Positions 4,857-29,419 of a stretch of DNA of 32,043 nucleotides are shown here, piece by piece. The notes under the pieces were generated by a model. It saw nothing but the letters and a program-made list of their open reading frames with translations. It did not search any database and was not told the DNA's origin. A program made the translations under genes and the position numbers. The first letter of the stretch is position 1, and every line of letters begins with the position of its first letter. Source of the stretch: a virus (lineage: Duplodnaviria > Heunggongvirae > Uroviricota > Caudoviricetes); the IMG/VR virus record IMGVR_UViG_2713896773_000025; one strand, 5' to 3'.

Positions 4857-5576
4857 ATGGAAAATAAAGAGAAATATATCCAGAGAATTAAAAAGCTGCT
4901 CGCGATGGCGCGTAATAACTCCAGCGCCGAAGAAGCCGCACTTGCCCTTAGCCGCGCTCAGCGCCTGATGGAAACCCACAAACTGACTGAGGCTGATGCT
5001 GATTTGATGGATATCAATGAAGCTTCTACCCAGAAGGCCCCCTCTCATGCTGAGAAGATGCCGGAATATATGGCAATACTGGCAGAGATGGTCGCGCGCG
5101 TTTTTGGCGTGAAGTTTTACACCAGCCATGGCGCTGAGCAGTGGGGCAAGCCAGCAAAACGCACCATACACTATTACGGCCCCGACGAACGCCCTCAGAT
5201 AGCGGCATATTCATTCGAAGTTCTGGGTAAGCAACTGGCGAAAGCCCGCCGTGATTACCTCTCCACATTACGCAAGAACATCAAACAGGCCACAAAAGTT
5301 GCCCGCGCCGATACCTTCTGTTCCGCCTGGGTCAACGGTGCTTATGCCGTTGTCAGTGATTTCGCTGTTACGGAGGCGGAGACAACGCTGATGGAGTGTT
5401 ACCGCAGCAGGAAATTAAGCGAAGGCATGAAAAAGCTGGAACCGCGCAAACCCGGCAAAGCCAGGGGAACGGATAAGGCGGAAAACGAGGGATATCTGGC
5501 TGGCCGCAATGCGCAGCTGCATCACGCGGTAAGCAGTTCAGCTAATAAATGCGAACAGATTGGAGTGACAAAATGA
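4857..5576 (+). CDS. DUF2786-like phage protein (239 aa)
   Basis: AAGGAG RBS; N-terminal KYIQRIKKLLAMARNNSSAEEAALALSRAQRLM resembles the DUF2786 signature recalled from phage early regions. Confidence 0.6.
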   Translation: MENKEKYIQRIKKLLAMARNNSSAEEAALALSRAQRLMETHKLTEADADLMDINEASTQKAPSHAEKMPEYMAILAEMVARVFGVKFYTSHGAEQWGKPAKRTIHYYGPDERPQIAAYSFEVLGKQLAKARRDYLSTLRKNIKQATKVARADTFCSAWVNGAYAVVSDFAVTEAETTLMECYRSRKLSEGMKKLEPRKPGKARGTDKAENEGYLAGRNAQLHHAVSSSANKCEQIGVTK

Positions 5577-5926
5577 AAATCTCGCCTCAACTGGAAACTA
5601 CGCCAGTCAAAGAACTCGTAGCAGCCGGGCATGCGCTGGCGAAAGAACTACATTGCGCTGAGTGTGCCGCGCTGGTTCGCAATCTGGCAACAGCGCTTGA
5701 TGTCCAGTTTGCTCGTGCCAACGCGCTAACGGTTGTTGATGTTAGTGACCCTAATGTGCTGGCGCAGCTGGATGAGCTGGAAGCTGTGAACGAGCTGTTT
5801 TTACGTGCAAAGCAGCTGATGTATCAATCAGGAGGGGCACCAATCGAAAACTCATTGAATCCGATTGATGCATGGCTGTATGACGCAGAACGCGCTGCCG
5901 CTGCCGCTGCCGGTAAAGGAGAGTGA
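5573..5926 (+). CDS. hypothetical protein (117 aa)
   Basis: ATGA start/stop overlap with upstream gene; Ala-rich C-terminus; no family recognised. Confidence 0.5.
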   Translation: MKISPQLETTPVKELVAAGHALAKELHCAECAALVRNLATALDVQFARANALTVVDVSDPNVLAQLDELEAVNELFLRAKQLMYQSGGAPIENSLNPIDAWLYDAERAAAAAAGKGE

Positions 5927-7187: not shown

Positions 7188-7405
7188 TGGATATAGCTTT
7201 CATTATCATATTGCTGGCGATGTATTTAACACTTGGCTGGTGTTGGGCATGCATCCTTGTCCGATTAGTGGGATTAGCTAATTTATCCCGACAGAATTGC
7301 TGGTTTGCCTTTCTCTTATGGCCTTTGAGCATTATCGCGACCGATGCGAATCTGGAGGAAAACGATGGGACATCTCCTGAGAAATCTGACAGCAAAGACC
7401 TTTAA
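7184..7405 (+). CDS. small membrane protein (about 72 aa)
   Basis: Two hydrophobic segments (IAFIIILLAMYLTLGWCWACILV and CWFAFLLWPLSIIA); GTG at 7184 or ATG at 7187. Confidence 0.4.
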   Translation: MMDIAFIIILLAMYLTLGWCWACILVRLVGLANLSRQNCWFAFLLWPLSIIATDANLEENDGTSPEKSDSKDL

Positions 7406-7574
7406 CCAGCGCTTCCCCGTTGGCTCACAGTTCCATTATTACCTGACACCTGGTGTATCGGAGCGGGAAACTGTAATAACCCGCCCGGCAGCCAGGCATA
7501 TGCGCAATGGTCGTCTGGTTGTCAGGGGCGAAGGGAAAATCGGTGGTATATCAGTCAGCAAAATGAAACCTTGA
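7365..7574 (+). CDS. small protein, paralog copy 2 (69 aa)
   Basis: GGAGG RBS before ATG at 7365; N-terminal motif shared with the ORF at 4585..4776. Confidence 0.5.
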   Translation: MGHLLRNLTAKTFNQRFPVGSQFHYYLTPGVSERETVITRPAARHMRNGRLVVRGEGKIGGISVSKMKP

Positions 7575-7580
7575 AAGTAA

Positions 7581-7622
7581 GTCATTACAGCAGGCACTTC
7601 ATAAAGTGCCTGCTGTAATGAC
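7581..7622. repeat. perfect 19-bp inverted repeat with 4-nt loop
   Basis: GTCATTACAGCAGGCACTT cata AAGTGCCTGCTGTAATGAC read directly from sequence; lies between the last early accessory ORF and the gemA RBS. Confidence 0.85.
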
Positions 7623-7641
7623 AACCAACAGGAGAAATATT

Positions 7642-8118
7642 ATGTCCACGCCAGCAAAACGAGGCCTTATAGGTGCAATTAAAGCCGGTCAGGCATATCT
7701 GGGGTGGGATGAGGTAACCTACCGTAGTGTTCTGTCTCGCTTATGCAACGGTAAAACATCATCCACTAAATGCACCCTCGACGAGCTGCAGGCTGTCAGG
7801 GAATATATGCATGACAAGGGTTTTCCTCGCTACTCAGCAAAACACGGTCGACGCCCAAAGGTTGCCAATACGCGCGAGTCAATTCTTTCTAAAATTAACG
7901 CATTACTTGCAGATGCAAAACGTCCGTGGAATTATGCCGAGAAAATGTGCGATCATATGTTTCACGTCAAATACATCGAGTGGTTGACGACTGAACAGTT
8001 AACCAAACTCATGCAGGCTCTCAGCATTGATGCGAGTCGGCGAAAAAAGCGGGAGCGTAATAATGAATCTGGAACAGGTAACGGAGCTGCTGCCATCAGC
8101 AGTGATTCAAATAGCTGA
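7642..8118 (+). CDS. gemA: GemA-like regulatory protein (158 aa)
   Basis: ATG at 7642 with AGGAG RBS; KRGLIGAIKAGQAYLGWDE...YRSVL pattern recalled from the Mu GemA/DUF1018 family; sits immediately before the Mor-like gene. Confidence 0.7.
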   Translation: MSTPAKRGLIGAIKAGQAYLGWDEVTYRSVLSRLCNGKTSSTKCTLDELQAVREYMHDKGFPRYSAKHGRRPKVANTRESILSKINALLADAKRPWNYAEKMCDHMFHVKYIEWLTTEQLTKLMQALSIDASRRKKRERNNESGTGNGAAAISSDSNS

Positions 8119-8497
8119 CCTGATAGGCTTCCCGGCGACCGAGCAGCTTCTTTCTGCTTTTGGTGGCACCACGTTCCCGATAGGTAAAGGCCTCCGCGCT
8201 ATGGGGGCCAGCCGCGCAGCCCTCCTGCGCAATACTATCGGCGATGATAAAACCCAATTACTCATCAAGAATTTCGGCGGAGAAGTTCTCTATTTACCGC
8301 GCTGTGATCGTGCCCTTCGTGAATTACGCAACCGCCGCTTTCTCGCCGAGTTCGCCGAAGTGCGTGAACAAGGTTCATCCTCTCTTATGGCCATGACCTT
8401 TCTTTGCCCTAAGTATGGATTCAGCGATCGTTTTGGATGGCAGTTACTAAGCCAGCACAGACAAAACACATCAATCAATCAACAAGAACTTTTTTAA
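8063..8497 (+). CDS. mor: Mor/C-family transcriptional activator (144 aa)
   Basis: GGEVLYLPR...LRELRNRRFLAEF...YGFSDR resembles the Mor/C core GG.VYIPR...L..DL.I...F.G.N..EL...YG; overlaps the gemA 3' end. Confidence 0.75.
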   Translation: MNLEQVTELLPSAVIQIADLIGFPATEQLLSAFGGTTFPIGKGLRAMGASRAALLRNTIGDDKTQLLIKNFGGEVLYLPRCDRALRELRNRRFLAEFAEVREQGSSSLMAMTFLCPKYGFSDRFGWQLLSQHRQNTSINQQELF

Positions 8498-8510
8498 AAA
8501 GGTAATATAC

Positions 8511-9011
8511 ATGGAGTTTTTAATTGCTTTAATTATATTCGGTGCTTCTGTTGCTGTTTACAAAGATGCTATCACCAATAACATTGCAAGACCTGCCCGT
8601 TGGGGGATTGGTTCAGCATTCATATTCTTCATTGTCATTCCATTGTATCTATTTAAAAGAAAAAAATTAATCGGAAGTGCATTATCAGACTCGGATGATG
8701 CCAGTAGTGTCCAGGGCGGAAAAAATGTTAGCCCCTTATCAGTTTATGTCCTGATGTTCATTTTAGCATTTATTGCCCCAGTGATTAATTTTTACAAAGG
8801 TGATTTACCTGGCTGTGATTCATCCGATGTCCATTCTGTTCTTACAGAGTTGCTGAATGGAGAAAAATTCTCTGAGCCCGCGCAAATGAGTTATGACCGG
8901 GTTAATGCAGTGAGACACTGTAACTTGACTGTTTCTGATAGAGTGTTTTCATATACAGTGAAATGGTACAGTGAAGAGAAAGATCAGTTTGTTGTACAGT
9001 TTGACAACTAA
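8511..9011 (+). CDS. AT-rich membrane protein, candidate moron (166 aa)
   Basis: Three hydrophobic helices plus a roughly 70-aa C-terminal soluble domain; gene is markedly more AT-rich than its neighbours. Confidence 0.6.
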   Translation: MEFLIALIIFGASVAVYKDAITNNIARPARWGIGSAFIFFIVIPLYLFKRKKLIGSALSDSDDASSVQGGKNVSPLSVYVLMFILAFIAPVINFYKGDLPGCDSSDVHSVLTELLNGEKFSEPAQMSYDRVNAVRHCNLTVSDRVFSYTVKWYSEEKDQFVVQFDN

Positions 9012-9013
9012 TT

Positions 9014-9091
9014 CCACTGAACCTCTTCACCTGATTATTCACCTAACCCGATGAAATACTGACGCCATCCCTTTTTAACCGGATGGCGTTA
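9014..9091 (+). promoter_or_regulatory. late-promoter-like element, copy 1: conserved motif CCACTGAACCTCTTCACC (9014..9031) plus hairpin 9060..9091 burying the endolysin start codon
   Basis: Motif is one of three near-identical copies; hairpin arms TGACGCCATCC / GGATGGCGTTA (one G-U pair) with a 10-nt loop; ATG at 9091. Confidence 0.55.
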
Positions 9092-21372: not shown

Positions 21373-22777
21373 TATCAGCTTTGACACTATCGGTACGAAC
21401 CGCAAGCCGGGTCAGTATATTGAGTTCAACACCCGCCTGGCCGTTCGTACCCTGCCAGGTAACACCCAGAAGGTGCTGATGATTGCGCCAATGCTGGCCT
21501 CCGGTTTGTCTGCACCGCTTGTCATTCAGTCTGTTTTCTCTGATGAAGAAGCTGCGACGTACTTTGGCCGTGGCTCGCTGGCGCATCTGATGGCCACAGC
21601 GGCCATCGGTGCCTACCCCTATCTGCAGCTGCAGATCGTCGGGGTCAGCGATGCGGCCACTGCAACAGCCGCGACGGGCAAAATCGCCCTGACCGGCACA
21701 GCATCTTCCGGCGGGAAGCTGAGCGTGACCATTAATGGTACCCGTATTGATGTCGGTATTTCGGCAGCAGATACGGCGGAGACCATTGCGGCAGCGCTGA
21801 CGGAACTGATTACCCAGAAAGACGGGTTGCCAGTGACGGCAACGGCAAACGCGGGGGAAGTGACCCTGACCTGCCGCCATAAAGGGGCTGTTGGTAACGA
21901 CATTATTGTCTCTTCCGGCGTGACGGCAGCGGGTATCACAGCGGCGACCACCACGCTGGCAGGCGGCAATGTTGATCCGGATATTACGCCAGCGCTGGCA
22001 GCAGCGTTCTCAGCAGGTCATAACATTGTTGTTTGTCCGTTCTCCACCCAGGAGGCGATGACGGCGCTGCGTAACCATCTGACAAACGTCAGCAATGCGA
22101 TGGAACAGCGCGGCGCAATTGGTGTGGGTGGGTGGCGCAAGTCGCTTTCCACCGGCATTGCACTGGCAGCCTCACTTAATGACGGACGTATCACGCTGGG
22201 CTGGCATAGCGGTTCGGTAAAAACACCGGCGCAGATTGCCGCTGCCTATGCTGCTGTTATCGCCAGTGAAGAGGACCCGGCACGCCCGCTGAACACCCTT
22301 GCGATGAGCACGCTGGACGTGACTGCAGTAGAGAGTCAGCCTGGGCGAACTGAGCAGGAGAACGCCCTGCTGAATGGTCTTACGCCGTTTGAGATTGGCC
22401 CCGGTGACAAAGTGCAAATCGTTCGCGCGATCAGCACCTACACCAAAAACGCCCAGGGCGTGGATGATGTGGCGCTGCTGGATATCACCACCATCCGAAC
22501 GCTGGACTATGTGCGCAAGGCCTGCCGTGAACGCATCGCTCTGCGATTCCCGCGCGACAAGCTCAGCTCAAGAACACCTCCGAAGGTACGCAGTGAACTG
22601 CTTGATGTGCTTTACAAGCTGGAGGAGCTGGAGATTGTCGAGGAGGTGGATGCCAACAAAGACGGTCTTATTGTAGAGCGCGATCTGCAGGATGTTAACC
22701 AGCTGAACGGTCGCATCCCTGCGGATGTTGTGAATGGCCTGCACGTCTTTGCCGGTCGAATTGATTTGCTGCTCTGA
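21359..22777 (+). CDS. contractile tail sheath protein, Mu L-like (472 aa, GTG start)
   Basis: Size, Gly/Ala/Thr-rich middle region, and position directly before the tube and chaperone genes. Confidence 0.87.
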   Translation: MSSPNISFDTIGTNRKPGQYIEFNTRLAVRTLPGNTQKVLMIAPMLASGLSAPLVIQSVFSDEEAATYFGRGSLAHLMATAAIGAYPYLQLQIVGVSDAATATAATGKIALTGTASSGGKLSVTINGTRIDVGISAADTAETIAAALTELITQKDGLPVTATANAGEVTLTCRHKGAVGNDIIVSSGVTAAGITAATTTLAGGNVDPDITPALAAAFSAGHNIVVCPFSTQEAMTALRNHLTNVSNAMEQRGAIGVGGWRKSLSTGIALAASLNDGRITLGWHSGSVKTPAQIAAAYAAVIASEEDPARPLNTLAMSTLDVTAVESQPGRTEQENALLNGLTPFEIGPGDKVQIVRAISTYTKNAQGVDDVALLDITTIRTLDYVRKACRERIALRFPRDKLSSRTPPKVRSELLDVLYKLEELEIVEEVDANKDGLIVERDLQDVNQLNGRIPADVVNGLHVFAGRIDLLL

Positions 22778-29015: not shown

Positions 29016-29077
29016 CCACTGAACCCCTTCACCGATAATTTAAATTTCCATGCCGGTAGTATTACGGCATGGAAATG
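29016..29077 (+). promoter_or_regulatory. late-promoter-like element, copy 3: motif CCACTGAACCCCTTCACC (29016..29033) plus 12-bp hairpin 29044..29076 covering both candidate start codons
   Basis: Stem ATTTCCATGCCG / CGGCATGGAAAT with loop GTAGTATTA; ATGs at 29069 and 29075 are inside the 3' arm. Confidence 0.55.
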
Positions 29078-29419
29078 TTGATTGATCCAACGACCGGCGA
29101 TTATACCGGCGACAGCTCAGACTCTTTAGCGAATGCCGTCTACTTACGGCTGATGACGCCCCTTGGCTCATGGTGGGCTGATCCAACTCTGGGCTCTCTT
29201 TTGCATACACTCCGCCGCGAAAAGGATGTGTCTCGCGTTCAACAACTCGCGGTGCAGTATTCGCGGCAGGCCCTGCAACCGATTATTGACGACGGTCGCG
29301 CCCAGTCCATTTCCGTTACTGCAGAGCACTGGCAAAAAGGCTGGATGCTGCTTCATATCACCGTCACGTCTGCGAGCGGAACGCCGCAGACCTGGAAATA
29401 TCCGGTTAAGGTCAGCTGA
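29069..29419 (+). CDS. baseplate protein, Mu gp46 / GP46-family (116 aa)
   Basis: Size and position before the baseplate J-like gene. Confidence 0.68.
   Translation: MEMLIDPTTGDYTGDSSDSLANAVYLRLMTPLGSWWADPTLGSLLHTLRREKDVSRVQQLAVQYSRQALQPIIDDGRAQSISVTAEHWQKGWMLLHITVTSASGTPQTWKYPVKVS

What the first reader, a model, noticed from the sequence alone, without database searches (positions are those of the whole stretch)
7581..7622. Perfect 19-bp palindrome between the early accessory operon and gemA
GTCATTACAGCAGGCACTT cata AAGTGCCTGCTGTAATGAC forms a 19-bp perfect stem with a 4-nt loop, far beyond chance for 32 kb. It is not followed by a U-tract on the plus strand, so it is not a classic intrinsic terminator. 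A stem this long could be an RNase III processing site separating upstream early mRNA from the gemA-mor message, a stability element, or an operator for a dimeric regulator setting gemA-mor timing.
Basis: seen in the sequence. Interest (0 to 1): 0.5.

Follow-up and report, generated by a model that had tools for sequence, protein, structure and literature searches.

The report
Conserved mRNA hairpin preceding gemA–mor
The palindrome is real, but it is a freshly "perfected" copy of an interrupted RNA stem-loop that sits just upstream of the gemA–mor regulatory genes in a clade of Mu-like prophages of enteric bacteria; it is most likely an ordinary mRNA processing or stability signal.

Summary
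Observation confirmed: 7581-7599 and 7604-7622 form a perfect 19-bp inverted repeat with a 4-nt loop. It lies between a small accessory ORF and gemA (Pfam GemA), which is followed by mor.

The perfection is private to this window. All 57 other hairpin+gemA haplotypes carry a 2x2 or 3x3 internal mismatch at stem positions 7-9. A metagenome contig identical over 3474 bp differs only at 7614-7615 (GA>TG), the two bases that close the mismatch. That fits one quasipalindrome template-switch mutation, or an assembly artefact.

The conserved element is a 6-7 bp lower stem, an internal loop, a 10-bp upper stem and a free loop.
- Stems are about 7x more conserved than synonymous sites; the loop is hypervariable.
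- Three pairs show compensatory changes.
- Every wobble is G·U on the sense strand (35 cells against 0 on the antisense strand; 5 events against 0).
- One variant has a longer loop.
- Homology starts at the hairpin in lineages with unrelated upstream genes.

This supports a sense-strand RNA hairpin belonging to the gemA–mor module. It argues against a DNA operator and against a terminator on either strand. RNase III processing is the best mechanistic guess but is untested. Interest is modest: a new member of a known kind.

The parts
7581..7622 (+). The stem-loop as a whole (42 nt): perfect 19-bp stem and 4-nt loop in this window. It is single-copy and lies on the sense strand of the early operon.
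7581..7587 (+). Lower stem, 5' arm (GTCATTA). It pairs with 7616-7622 (TAATGAC). It is A/U-rich and conserved. Pair 2/41 is U-A or U·G, and pair 3/40 shows a C-G to U-A compensatory change in the Kosakonia lineage.
7588..7589 (+). 5' side of the position that is an internal loop in every relative (C8, A9). In this window only, it is paired with 7614-7615.
   Evidence: pair 8/35 is unpaired in 18 of 25 variants, pair 9/34 in 24 of 25.
7590..7599 (+). Upper stem, 5' arm (GCAGGCACTT). It pairs with 7604-7613 (AAGTGCCTGC). This 10 bp is nearly invariant. Pair 15/28 runs C-G > U·G > U-A, and pair 19/24 runs U-A > U·G > C-G.
7600..7603 (+). Loop (CATA). It is hypervariable among relatives, with at least 15 different tetranucleotides and one 5-nt version. 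Mean pairwise difference is 0.56.
7614..7615 (+). The dinucleotide TG that makes the palindrome perfect. All relatives have GA, CG or AA here. These are the only two differences from contig SKEG01000615.1 (L139) over 3474 bp. In relatives, GA completes TGCGATAAT, an extended -10-like string.
7623..7641 (+). Unstructured A/C-rich spacer with the gemA Shine-Dalgarno (AGGAG, 7630-7634). The hairpin does not sequester it.
7642..8118 (+). gemA (158 aa). The hairpin travels with this gene.
   Evidence: Pfam PF06252, 1.6e-19..
8063..8497 (+). mor (144 aa), activator of the next transcription stage. It overlaps the end of gemA.
   Evidence: Pfam PF08765, 1.6e-08. Annotated 'Mor transcription activator family protein' in the E. 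coli relative.
7344..7574 (+). Last accessory ORF of the early region (71-76 aa, no Pfam family). It is replaced by unrelated genes in L114/L117 and L115, while the hairpin stays.

Best explanation
The element is a cis-acting stem-loop in the sense-strand early mRNA. It forms the 5' edge of the gemA-mor module in one clade of Mu-like prophages of Enterobacteriaceae. Its selected form is a lower stem of 6-7 bp, an internal loop of 2x2 or 3x3 nt, a 10-bp G/C-rich upper stem and a loop of any sequence. It lies 8-20 nt upstream of the gemA ribosome-binding site. I infer that it acts post-transcriptionally as a processing or stability signal. The most likely mechanism is RNase III binding and cutting at or near the internal loop, about 11 positions below the loop. 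That would separate the gemA-mor message from the variable accessory genes upstream and leave a hairpin that protects an RNA end. This would set the amount or timing of Mor independently of whatever lies upstream. The window's perfect 19-bp form arose by a single 2-nt templated (quasipalindrome template-switch) mutation. What is shown: conservation, strand polarity, linkage to gemA, and the derived origin of the perfect form. What is inferred: transcription through the site, RNase III as the enzyme, and the effect on Mor.
For: The hairpin is present at the same place in 58 distinct hairpin+gemA haplotypes from E. coli, Klebsiella, Kosakonia, Phytobacter, IMG/VR and metagenomes. Mean pairwise difference is 0.06-0.07 in the stems, 0.45-0.50 at third codon positions of both flanking genes, and 0.56 in the loop. 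Three pairs show double-sided changes (3/40, 15/28, 19/24), with G·U intermediates. Outside positions 7-9, the + strand has 361 Watson-Crick, 35 G·U and 4 mismatched cells; the - strand has 0 G·U and 39 mismatched cells. On a gemA tree there are 5 WC>G·U events, 7 G·U>WC events, 1 WC>WC event and 0 WC>A·C events. The + strand RNA is more stable in 19 of 25 variants, and stays at -20 to -27.5 kcal/mol where the - strand drops to -14 to -16. Loop length varies between 4 and 5 nt. In L114/L117 and L115 the upstream gene and the spacer to the SD are unrelated, and homology begins at the first base of the hairpin. Three points of geometry agree with published RNase III rules. Substrates typically span about two helical turns. 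Internal loops restrict cleavage to one strand and leave a protective 3' hairpin. An 11-bp helix between cut and loop is the minimum, and loop sequence is irrelevant (PMC1540722; about 22 bp in PMC6212723). Derived state of the perfect form: L139 differs from the window only at 7614-7615 over 3474 bp. The mechanism is described in PMC7202029.
Against: There is no RNA-end or expression data, so transcription through the site and any cleavage are inferred. The covariation statistics are weak: the covariation score is reached by 336 of 500 shuffles, because 11 of 19 pairs never vary. The strand-polarity argument rests on about 5 informative events, and a coding-strand C>T / A>G mutation bias would push the same way. 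The helix (17-19 bp) is shorter than the roughly 22 bp typical of RNase III double-cleavage sites. The upper stem is 10 bp, not 11. If the cut were at the internal loop, proximal-box positions 2-3 would be C-G and G-C, and C-G/G-C at position 2 is reported to inhibit RNase III binding (PMC1540722). The near-invariance of the upper-stem sequence could also mean sequence-specific recognition by something else. More distant gemA clades (Serratia type, Mu, others) lack this hairpin.
Confidence: 0.4

Rival explanations
1. A structure-only RNA element that no endonuclease recognises. It would act as a barrier to 3'-5' exonucleases or to 5'-end-dependent decay. Alternatively it would act as a local 'insulator' that keeps the gemA ribosome-binding site free of pairing with whichever accessory gene recombination places upstream.
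For: It shares all the RNA-level evidence of the best explanation. The hairpin stays with gemA while upstream genes are swapped. The SD lies in an unpaired A/C-rich stretch just 3' of the stem. The sequence at predicted RNase III proximal-box positions is unfavourable (PMC1540722).
Against: A pure barrier or insulator does not explain why the interruption stays at the same stem position in all lineages, although neutral drift of unpaired positions could (pi 0.38). There is no direct evidence on RNA decay or translation.
Confidence: 0.25
2. A sigma-70 extended -10 promoter lies inside the right arm. It would be the counterpart of the promoter annotated just upstream of gemA in Mu, giving gemA-mor expression independent of the early promoter. 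The palindrome would then be incidental or modulatory.
For: Most lineages read TGCGATAAT at 7611-7619, which is TGn plus 5/6 of TATAAT with A-11 and T-7. L149 reads TGCAATAAT. Mu's record annotates a 'semi-early promoter' at 8151-8217, directly upstream of gemA at 8233. [quoted passage not shown]
Against: The window (TGCTGTAAT) and the whole Klebsiella-type clade (TGCCGTAAT) lack A at -11. There is no acceptable -35, and the promoter scan finds nothing here. A promoter does not explain conservation of the left arm, the compensatory changes or the G·U polarity. A transcript starting 3' of the -10 would not contain the hairpin.
Confidence: 0.1
3. A double-stranded DNA operator bound by a dimeric regulator (for example Mor, Ner or the repressor) that sets gemA-mor transcription.
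For: The site is palindromic, its central 4-6 bp are free to vary, and the half-site sequence GCAGGCACT is highly conserved. Symmetric changes in both arms (L115: GCAGGTACT in both) would also fit co-evolution with a protein.
Against: Half-site spacing differs by 1 bp in L067/L104/L163/L177. Every asymmetric state is a G·U-type pair on the + strand and never the A·C type. Positions 7-9 are asymmetric and fast-evolving inside the presumed site. There is no second site. Half-site matches elsewhere in the window number 17 against 10±3 expected, all isolated, and the covariance model finds one copy per phage segment. No promoter was detected for it to control.
Confidence: 0.07
4. An intrinsic terminator for leftward (- strand) transcription, protecting the early operon from antisense read-in.
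For: The scan lists it as terminator-like on the - strand, with a 19-bp stem and the tail TTACTTTCAA.
Against: The T-rich tail is confined to the window's subclade. Other lineages have TCACTGAATG, TCACGCTATG, CGCGAAACTA or AACTGATAAA. The - strand hairpin degrades in diverged variants. All neighbouring ORFs are on the + strand.
Confidence: 0.03
5. No function: a neutral or mutationally maintained palindrome, or (for the perfect form only) an assembly or polishing artefact.
For: Template switching can create and homogenise inverted repeats without selection (PMC7202029). The perfect form is seen in one sequence only.
Against: Stem diversity is about 7-fold below synonymous diversity across 58 haplotypes and several genera. 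Repeated homogenisation would erase the internal mismatch and the G·U pairs, but they persist in every lineage except this window.
Confidence: 0.05

Closest known systems
Phage T7 early-mRNA RNase III processing signals (R1.1 type)
   Same: Both are intercistronic hairpins in a phage early polycistronic mRNA. Both have an upper stem of about 10-11 bp, an internal loop and a lower stem, and the loop sequence is irrelevant. In T7 the internal loop limits cleavage to one strand and leaves a protective 3' hairpin (PMC1540722). A fully Watson-Crick version (R1.1[WC]) is cut on both strands, which parallels the window's perfected form.
   Different: Here there is a single site per genome rather than a series. 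The helix is shorter (17-19 bp). The internal loop is a small symmetric 2x2/3x3 loop. The G/C pairs next to the loop are unfavourable by the published proximal-box rules. Cleavage is not demonstrated.
Hairpin upstream of gemA in phage Mu itself, next to the annotated semi-early promoter
   Same: The position is the same: a stem-loop immediately 5' of the gemA Shine-Dalgarno, at the end of the accessory early region (GGCGGTG-ttgcag-CACCGCC).
   Different: The sequence is unrelated, with a 7-bp G/C stem followed by CCCTTTCC. It lies in a 105-nt intergenic region that holds an annotated promoter. The covariance model of the present hairpin does not match Mu. Its function is unknown to me.
Intercistronic stabiliser hairpins of bacterial operons (REP-type 3' barriers; 5' stem-loops such as that of ompA). 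This comparison rests on my general knowledge.
   Same: A stable stem-loop between cistrons can give the two sides of a polycistronic mRNA different stabilities.
   Different: It is not a repeated element. It is single-copy, with no REP/ERIC similarity and no Rfam match.
Quasipalindrome-associated template-switch mutations (E. coli thyA/lacZ reporters)
   Same: An imperfect inverted repeat was converted towards perfection by a multi-base change templated by the other arm. GA>TG at 7614-7615 is the only difference in 3474 bp. The mechanism is described in PMC7202029.
   Different: This is a natural occurrence in a prophage regulatory hairpin, not a reporter. An assembly artefact cannot be excluded.

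Membership tests
E. coli RNase III processing signal | Double helix of about two turns (about 20-22 bp, coaxial stacking allowed) | tested here: inconclusive
   The window has 19 contiguous bp. Relatives have 16-17 bp plus a 2x2 or 3x3 loop. This is slightly shorter than the typical length given in PMC1540722 and PMC6212723.
E. coli RNase III processing signal | At least 11 bp between the scissile bond and the hairpin loop, with loop sequence irrelevant | tested here: inconclusive
   The upper stem is 10 bp and the internal loop starts at the 11th position. The loop is hypervariable. The rule comes from PMC1540722.
E. coli RNase III processing signal | Internal loop or bulge that restricts cleavage to one strand (T7-type sites) | tested here: met
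   This is met in all 57 other haplotypes, as a 2x2 or 3x3 loop at stem positions 7-9. It is not met in the window itself, which is fully paired.
E. coli RNase III processing signal | Favourable proximal/distal box base pairs and absence of antideterminants | tested here: inconclusive
   The U-A and U·G (or U-A) pairs next to the loop resemble the canonical distal box UA/UG, but the orientation could not be checked. For a cut at the internal loop, proximal-box positions 2-3 would be C-G and G-C, and C-G/G-C at position 2 is reported as inhibitory (PMC1540722). The in vivo scoring matrix of PMC6212723 is not held.
E. coli RNase III processing signal | rnc-dependent cleavage in vivo or in vitro | not testable with these tools
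   No RNA-end data were available, and no paper linking Mu-like early mRNA to RNase III was found.
Intrinsic (Rho-independent) terminator | G/C-rich stem directly followed by a U-tract on the transcribed strand | tested here: not met
   The + strand tail is AACCAACAGGAG in all lineages, or AATAAAAATCGC in L114. The - strand tail is T-rich only in the window's subclade.
Palindromic operator of a dimeric DNA-binding regulator | Two symmetric half-sites at fixed spacing, usually with further copies at regulated promoters | tested here: not met
   The spacing is +1 bp in L067-type variants. Arm asymmetries are all G·U-type. The site is single-copy.
Sigma-70 extended -10 promoter (analogue of Mu's promoter upstream of gemA) | TGn followed by a TATAAT-like hexamer with A at -11 and T at -7 | tested here: not met
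   The window reads TGCTGTAAT, with G at -11, and the scan finds no promoter. Most relatives do read TGCGATAAT, and the Klebsiella type reads TGCCGTAAT.
Any curated Rfam family | Score at or above the family gathering threshold | tested here: not met
   There are 0 hits at gathering thresholds over the whole window. At a permissive E-value there are only generic miRNA-hairpin matches far below threshold.
Quasipalindrome template-switch mutation | A clustered multi-base change that increases complementarity of an imperfect inverted repeat and is exactly templated by the other arm | tested here: met
   GA>TG at 7614-7615 pairs with C8 and A9. These are the only 2 differences from L139 in 3474 bp, and all other relatives keep the mismatch.

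The most novel reading that the evidence does not exclude
The palindrome works at the DNA level as a supercoiling sensor. The right arm carries the -10 of a gemA-mor promoter (TGCGATAAT in most relatives), and hairpin or cruciform extrusion under high negative supercoiling would occlude it. Since GemA has been linked to host gyrase and supercoiling, this would close a feedback loop. The window's perfected palindrome would then be a natural mutant with altered extrusion and a dead -10. A second, less exotic novel reading is a sequence-specific RNA operator for an unidentified phage or host protein that times Mor.
Probability: 0.04. Interest if true: 0.7.

Novelty: new member of a known kind. 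Interest (0 to 1): 0.3.

Why it matters
Mor switches Mu-like phages from early to middle and late transcription, and it is encoded at the far end of a long early transcript. A conserved cis element that travels with gemA–mor, whatever lies upstream, is a plausible control point for how much Mor is made and when. The element is not described in Rfam or in any record or paper I could reach. It also offers a clean natural pair of alleles, interrupted and perfected, that differ by two bases. These could be used to test RNase III single-strand against double-strand cleavage, or hairpin function generally. It also gives a natural example of a quasipalindrome template-switch mutation. None of this would overturn current understanding.

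Tried and rejected
- **Rfam:** no hits at gathering thresholds over the whole window, and only generic miRNA-like hairpin hits around the site at a permissive E-value.
- **Promoter/terminator scan:** no promoter at the site. A - strand terminator-like call was rejected because its T-tail is not conserved.
- **Repeated operator:** half-site and whole-arm searches in the window, and a covariance model over 205 kb of related and unrelated Mu-like loci, found one copy per phage. Nothing was found in Mu, the Serratia-type loci or other gemA clades.
- **Mobile or repeat element:** rejected, because the element is single-copy and always in the same context. The one out-of-context hit (L029) shares only the 10-bp upper stem.
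- **Covariation significance by column shuffling:** not significant, because variation is low. I therefore relied on strand asymmetry, event counts and diversity ratios.
- **In vivo RNase III matrix of PMC6212723:** its supplement is not held.
- **The paper behind Mu's 'semi-early promoter' (PMID 9454718):** not held.
- **Literature search linking Mu-like early mRNA to RNase III:** found nothing.
- **In-frame GTG at 7606 as an N-terminal extension of gemA:** rejected, because spacer length differs among lineages.

Full report
**1. Observation**

Positions 7581-7599 (GTCATTACAGCAGGCACTT) and 7604-7622 (AAGTGCCTGCTGTAATGAC) are perfectly complementary, with CATA between them.
- No other perfect long inverted repeat exists in the 32-kb window.
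- The arm has no further copy with up to 3 mismatches, against 0 expected.
- By simple arithmetic, such a repeat is expected about 1e-6 times in 32 kb.
- As RNA, the 131-nt context folds at -44.5 kcal/mol with z = -6.3. The 42-mer alone folds at -32.6 kcal/mol.
- The + strand tail is AACCAACAGGAG, so there is no U-tract.

- The ORF at 7642-8118 is GemA (PF06252, 1.6e-19) and 8063-8497 is Mor (PF08765, 1.6e-08).
- Upstream are small accessory ORFs, including a DUF4406 protein.
- Close relatives in an E. coli chromosome and in a Klebsiella phage have the gene order of a Mu-like transposable prophage.

**2. The perfect palindrome is private to this window**

I collected relatives in several ways:
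- a pattern for the 10-bp core;
- GemA protein searches in species genomes, viral contigs and metagenomes;
- BLAST against phage and E. coli collections.

Wherever GemA is about 72-100% identical, a hairpin sits at the same place. There are 58 distinct hairpin+gemA haplotypes and 26 distinct hairpin sequences. They come from E. coli, Klebsiella, Kosakonia, Phytobacter and uncultured material.

Only the window is perfect.
- The E. coli-type relatives read ...GCGATAATGRC. This leaves C8·A and A9·G as a 2x2 internal loop.
- The Klebsiella type has CTT opposite CGT, a 3x3 loop with a possible U·G in the middle.
- These include relatives whose GemA is 99-100% identical to the window's.

Contig SKEG01000615.1 (L139) is identical to the window over 3474 bp except at 7614 (G>T) and 7615 (A>G). 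These are the two adjacent bases that convert the tandem mismatch into Watson-Crick pairs. Two adjacent substitutions that are both templated by the opposite arm, on an otherwise identical background, are the signature of a quasipalindrome template-switch mutation (mechanism: PMC7202029). An assembly or polishing artefact would look the same and cannot be excluded.

The thing under selection is an interrupted hairpin: a lower stem of 6-7 bp, an internal loop, a 10-bp upper stem and a loop.

**3. The interrupted hairpin is under strong selection, apparently as sense-strand RNA**

*Conservation.* Mean pairwise difference by region:

| Region | Mean pairwise difference |
|---|---|
| Stems, excluding positions 7-9 | 0.06-0.07 |
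| Third codon positions of gemA and the upstream ORF | 0.45-0.50 |
| Internal-loop positions | 0.38 |
| Loop | 0.56 |

*Compensatory changes.* Three pairs show changes on both sides:
- 3/40: C-G to U-A (Kosakonia lineage);
- 15/28: C-G to U·G to U-A;
- 19/24: U-A to U·G to C-G.

*Strand polarity.*
- Outside positions 7-9, the 25 variants give 361 Watson-Crick, 35 G·U and 4 mismatched cells on the + strand. On the - strand they give 0 G·U and 39 mismatches.
- On a neighbour-joining tree of gemA, parsimony infers 5 WC>G·U events, 7 G·U>WC, 1 WC>WC, 3 changes to or between mismatches and 0 WC>A·C. The mismatch events occur only at the terminal pairs 2/41 and 19/24.
- The + strand RNA is more stable than the - strand in 19 of 25 variants. 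In diverged variants the + strand stays at -20 to -23 kcal/mol while the - strand falls to -14 to -16.

*Loop length.* One lineage (L067/L104/L163/L177) has a 5-nt loop, which changes arm spacing by one base.

*Caveats.*
- Column-shuffle controls are not significant, because most pairs never vary.
- The polarity argument rests on about five informative events.
- A coding-strand transition bias would act in the same direction.

**4. The hairpin belongs to gemA-mor**

In L114/L117 the upstream gene is an unrelated 121-aa ORF, and in L115 it is an unrelated 261-aa ORF. In all three the spacer to the Shine-Dalgarno also differs. Sequence similarity to the window begins at the first base of the hairpin. 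In most lineages the stop codon of the upstream ORF abuts the hairpin.

The hairpin never overlaps the SD, which lies 8-20 nt downstream in an unpaired stretch. The element is single-copy per phage segment. It is absent from Mu, from the Serratia-type relatives (GemA 69-70% identical) and from other gemA clades.

Mu has an unrelated 7-bp hairpin in the equivalent position. It lies downstream of a promoter annotated in its GenBank record.

**5. Mechanism**

The evidence supports a cis-acting stem-loop in the early polycistronic mRNA. It does not identify what reads that stem-loop.

RNase III is the best candidate on geometry (PMC1540722; PMC6212723):
- E. coli substrates typically span two helical turns;
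- internal loops restrict cutting to one strand and leave a protective 3' hairpin;
- 11 bp between cut and loop is the minimum;
- loop sequence does not matter.

Here the internal loop begins at the 11th position below the loop. The loop is free to vary. The setting, between cistrons of a phage early operon, is the classical one.

Three points count against it:
- the helix is short;
- the upper stem is 10 bp rather than 11;
- the pairs that would occupy proximal-box positions 2-3 are C-G and G-C, and position 2 is reported as inhibitory when it is C-G or G-C.

I therefore give about 0.4 to the processing/stability reading with RNase III as the preferred enzyme. I give about 0.25 to a structure-only stabiliser or insulator.

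The protective hairpin would then be lost.

**6. Rivals**

- **Extended -10 promoter.** TGCGATAAT lies in the right arm of most relatives. This is intriguing given Mu's annotated promoter upstream of gemA and reports of constitutive gem expression. But A-11 is missing in the window and in the whole Klebsiella-type clade. No -35 exists. A promoter would not explain the left arm or the pairing pattern.
- **dsDNA operator.** It is disfavoured by the spacing change, by the one-sided wobble pattern, by the fast-evolving asymmetric centre of each arm and by the lack of any second site.
- **A - strand terminator.** It is listed by the scan and rejected because the T-rich tail is not conserved.
- **No function.** This is contradicted by the seven-fold deficit of stem substitutions.

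**7. Comparison, novelty, verdict**

The element works like a T7-type intercistronic processing or stability hairpin. Membership in the RNase III substrate class is unproven, and the feature tests are mixed. It matches no Rfam family, and I found no description of it in the records or papers available.

I rate it a new member of a known kind, with interest of about 0.3. Its practical value is threefold. It gives a defined control point upstream of the Mor switch. It provides a natural two-base allele pair for experiments. It is also a natural example of template-switch palindrome perfection.

Noticed in passing
L078 1694-1713 (phage Mu AF083977, about 8193-8212): Mu itself has an unrelated hairpin, GGCGGTG-ttgcag-CACCGCC followed by CCCTTTCC, immediately before the gemA Shine-Dalgarno. 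It lies inside or just after the region annotated as 'semi-early promoter' (PMID 9454718). It is a positional analogue of the window's hairpin.
   Followed up: partly
window 7611-7619 and the same place in relatives: The right arm of most relatives reads TGCGATAAT, an extended -10-like string. The window (TGCTGTAAT) and the Klebsiella-type clade (TGCCGTAAT) lack A at -11. The perfecting mutation would therefore destroy this putative -10.
   Followed up: partly
L119 about 1940-1960; L120/L121 about 1950-1970: A more distant gemA clade (60-63% identity) has a 12-bp loopless perfect palindrome, GTGACCGGTCAC, about 35 nt upstream of the gemA start. It looks more like a protein-binding site than a hairpin.
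   Followed up: no
L123 1870-1931 (and L122-L138): Another gemA clade has a long stem, ACAGGAACGC...GCGTTCCTGT, upstream of gemA, with G·U-type variation on the sense strand. It lies inside the 104-aa ORF that overlaps the gemA start.
   Followed up: partly
window 7569-7580: The last accessory ORF stops two codons earlier in the window and its closest relatives (CCT TGA) than in the L001-type relatives (CCT TTA AAG TAA). In the L001 type the stop codon abuts the hairpin.
   Followed up: no
window 8435-9014: The ORF at 8511-9011 (166 aa, no Pfam family), just after mor, is replaced by unrelated sequence in close relatives L041/L009/L023. BLAST similarity breaks at 8435 and resumes at 9014, which marks a mosaic cassette boundary.
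   Followed up: no
window 5893-5898: There is a 6-bp indel (GCTGCT-type, within an alanine run of ORF 5549-5926) relative to L043, which is otherwise 99.5% identical.
   Followed up: no
L029 5088-5111: An unrelated viral contig carries the same 10-bp upper stem (GGCAGGCACTC-GCAA-GAGTGCCTGCC) in a different context. This is probably chance or an unrelated terminator-like hairpin.
   Followed up: partly
window 29037-29083 and 21392-21451: There are two other imperfect inverted repeats in the late region: 19 nt at 84% complementarity with a 9-nt spacer, and 21 nt at 86% with an 18-nt spacer.
   Followed up: no
L114 1915-1990: In L114 the sequence flanking the hairpin (TTTCGCG ... CGCGGAG) can pair and extend the stem so that the gemA SD is sequestered. 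This is not seen in the window's lineage.
   Followed up: no
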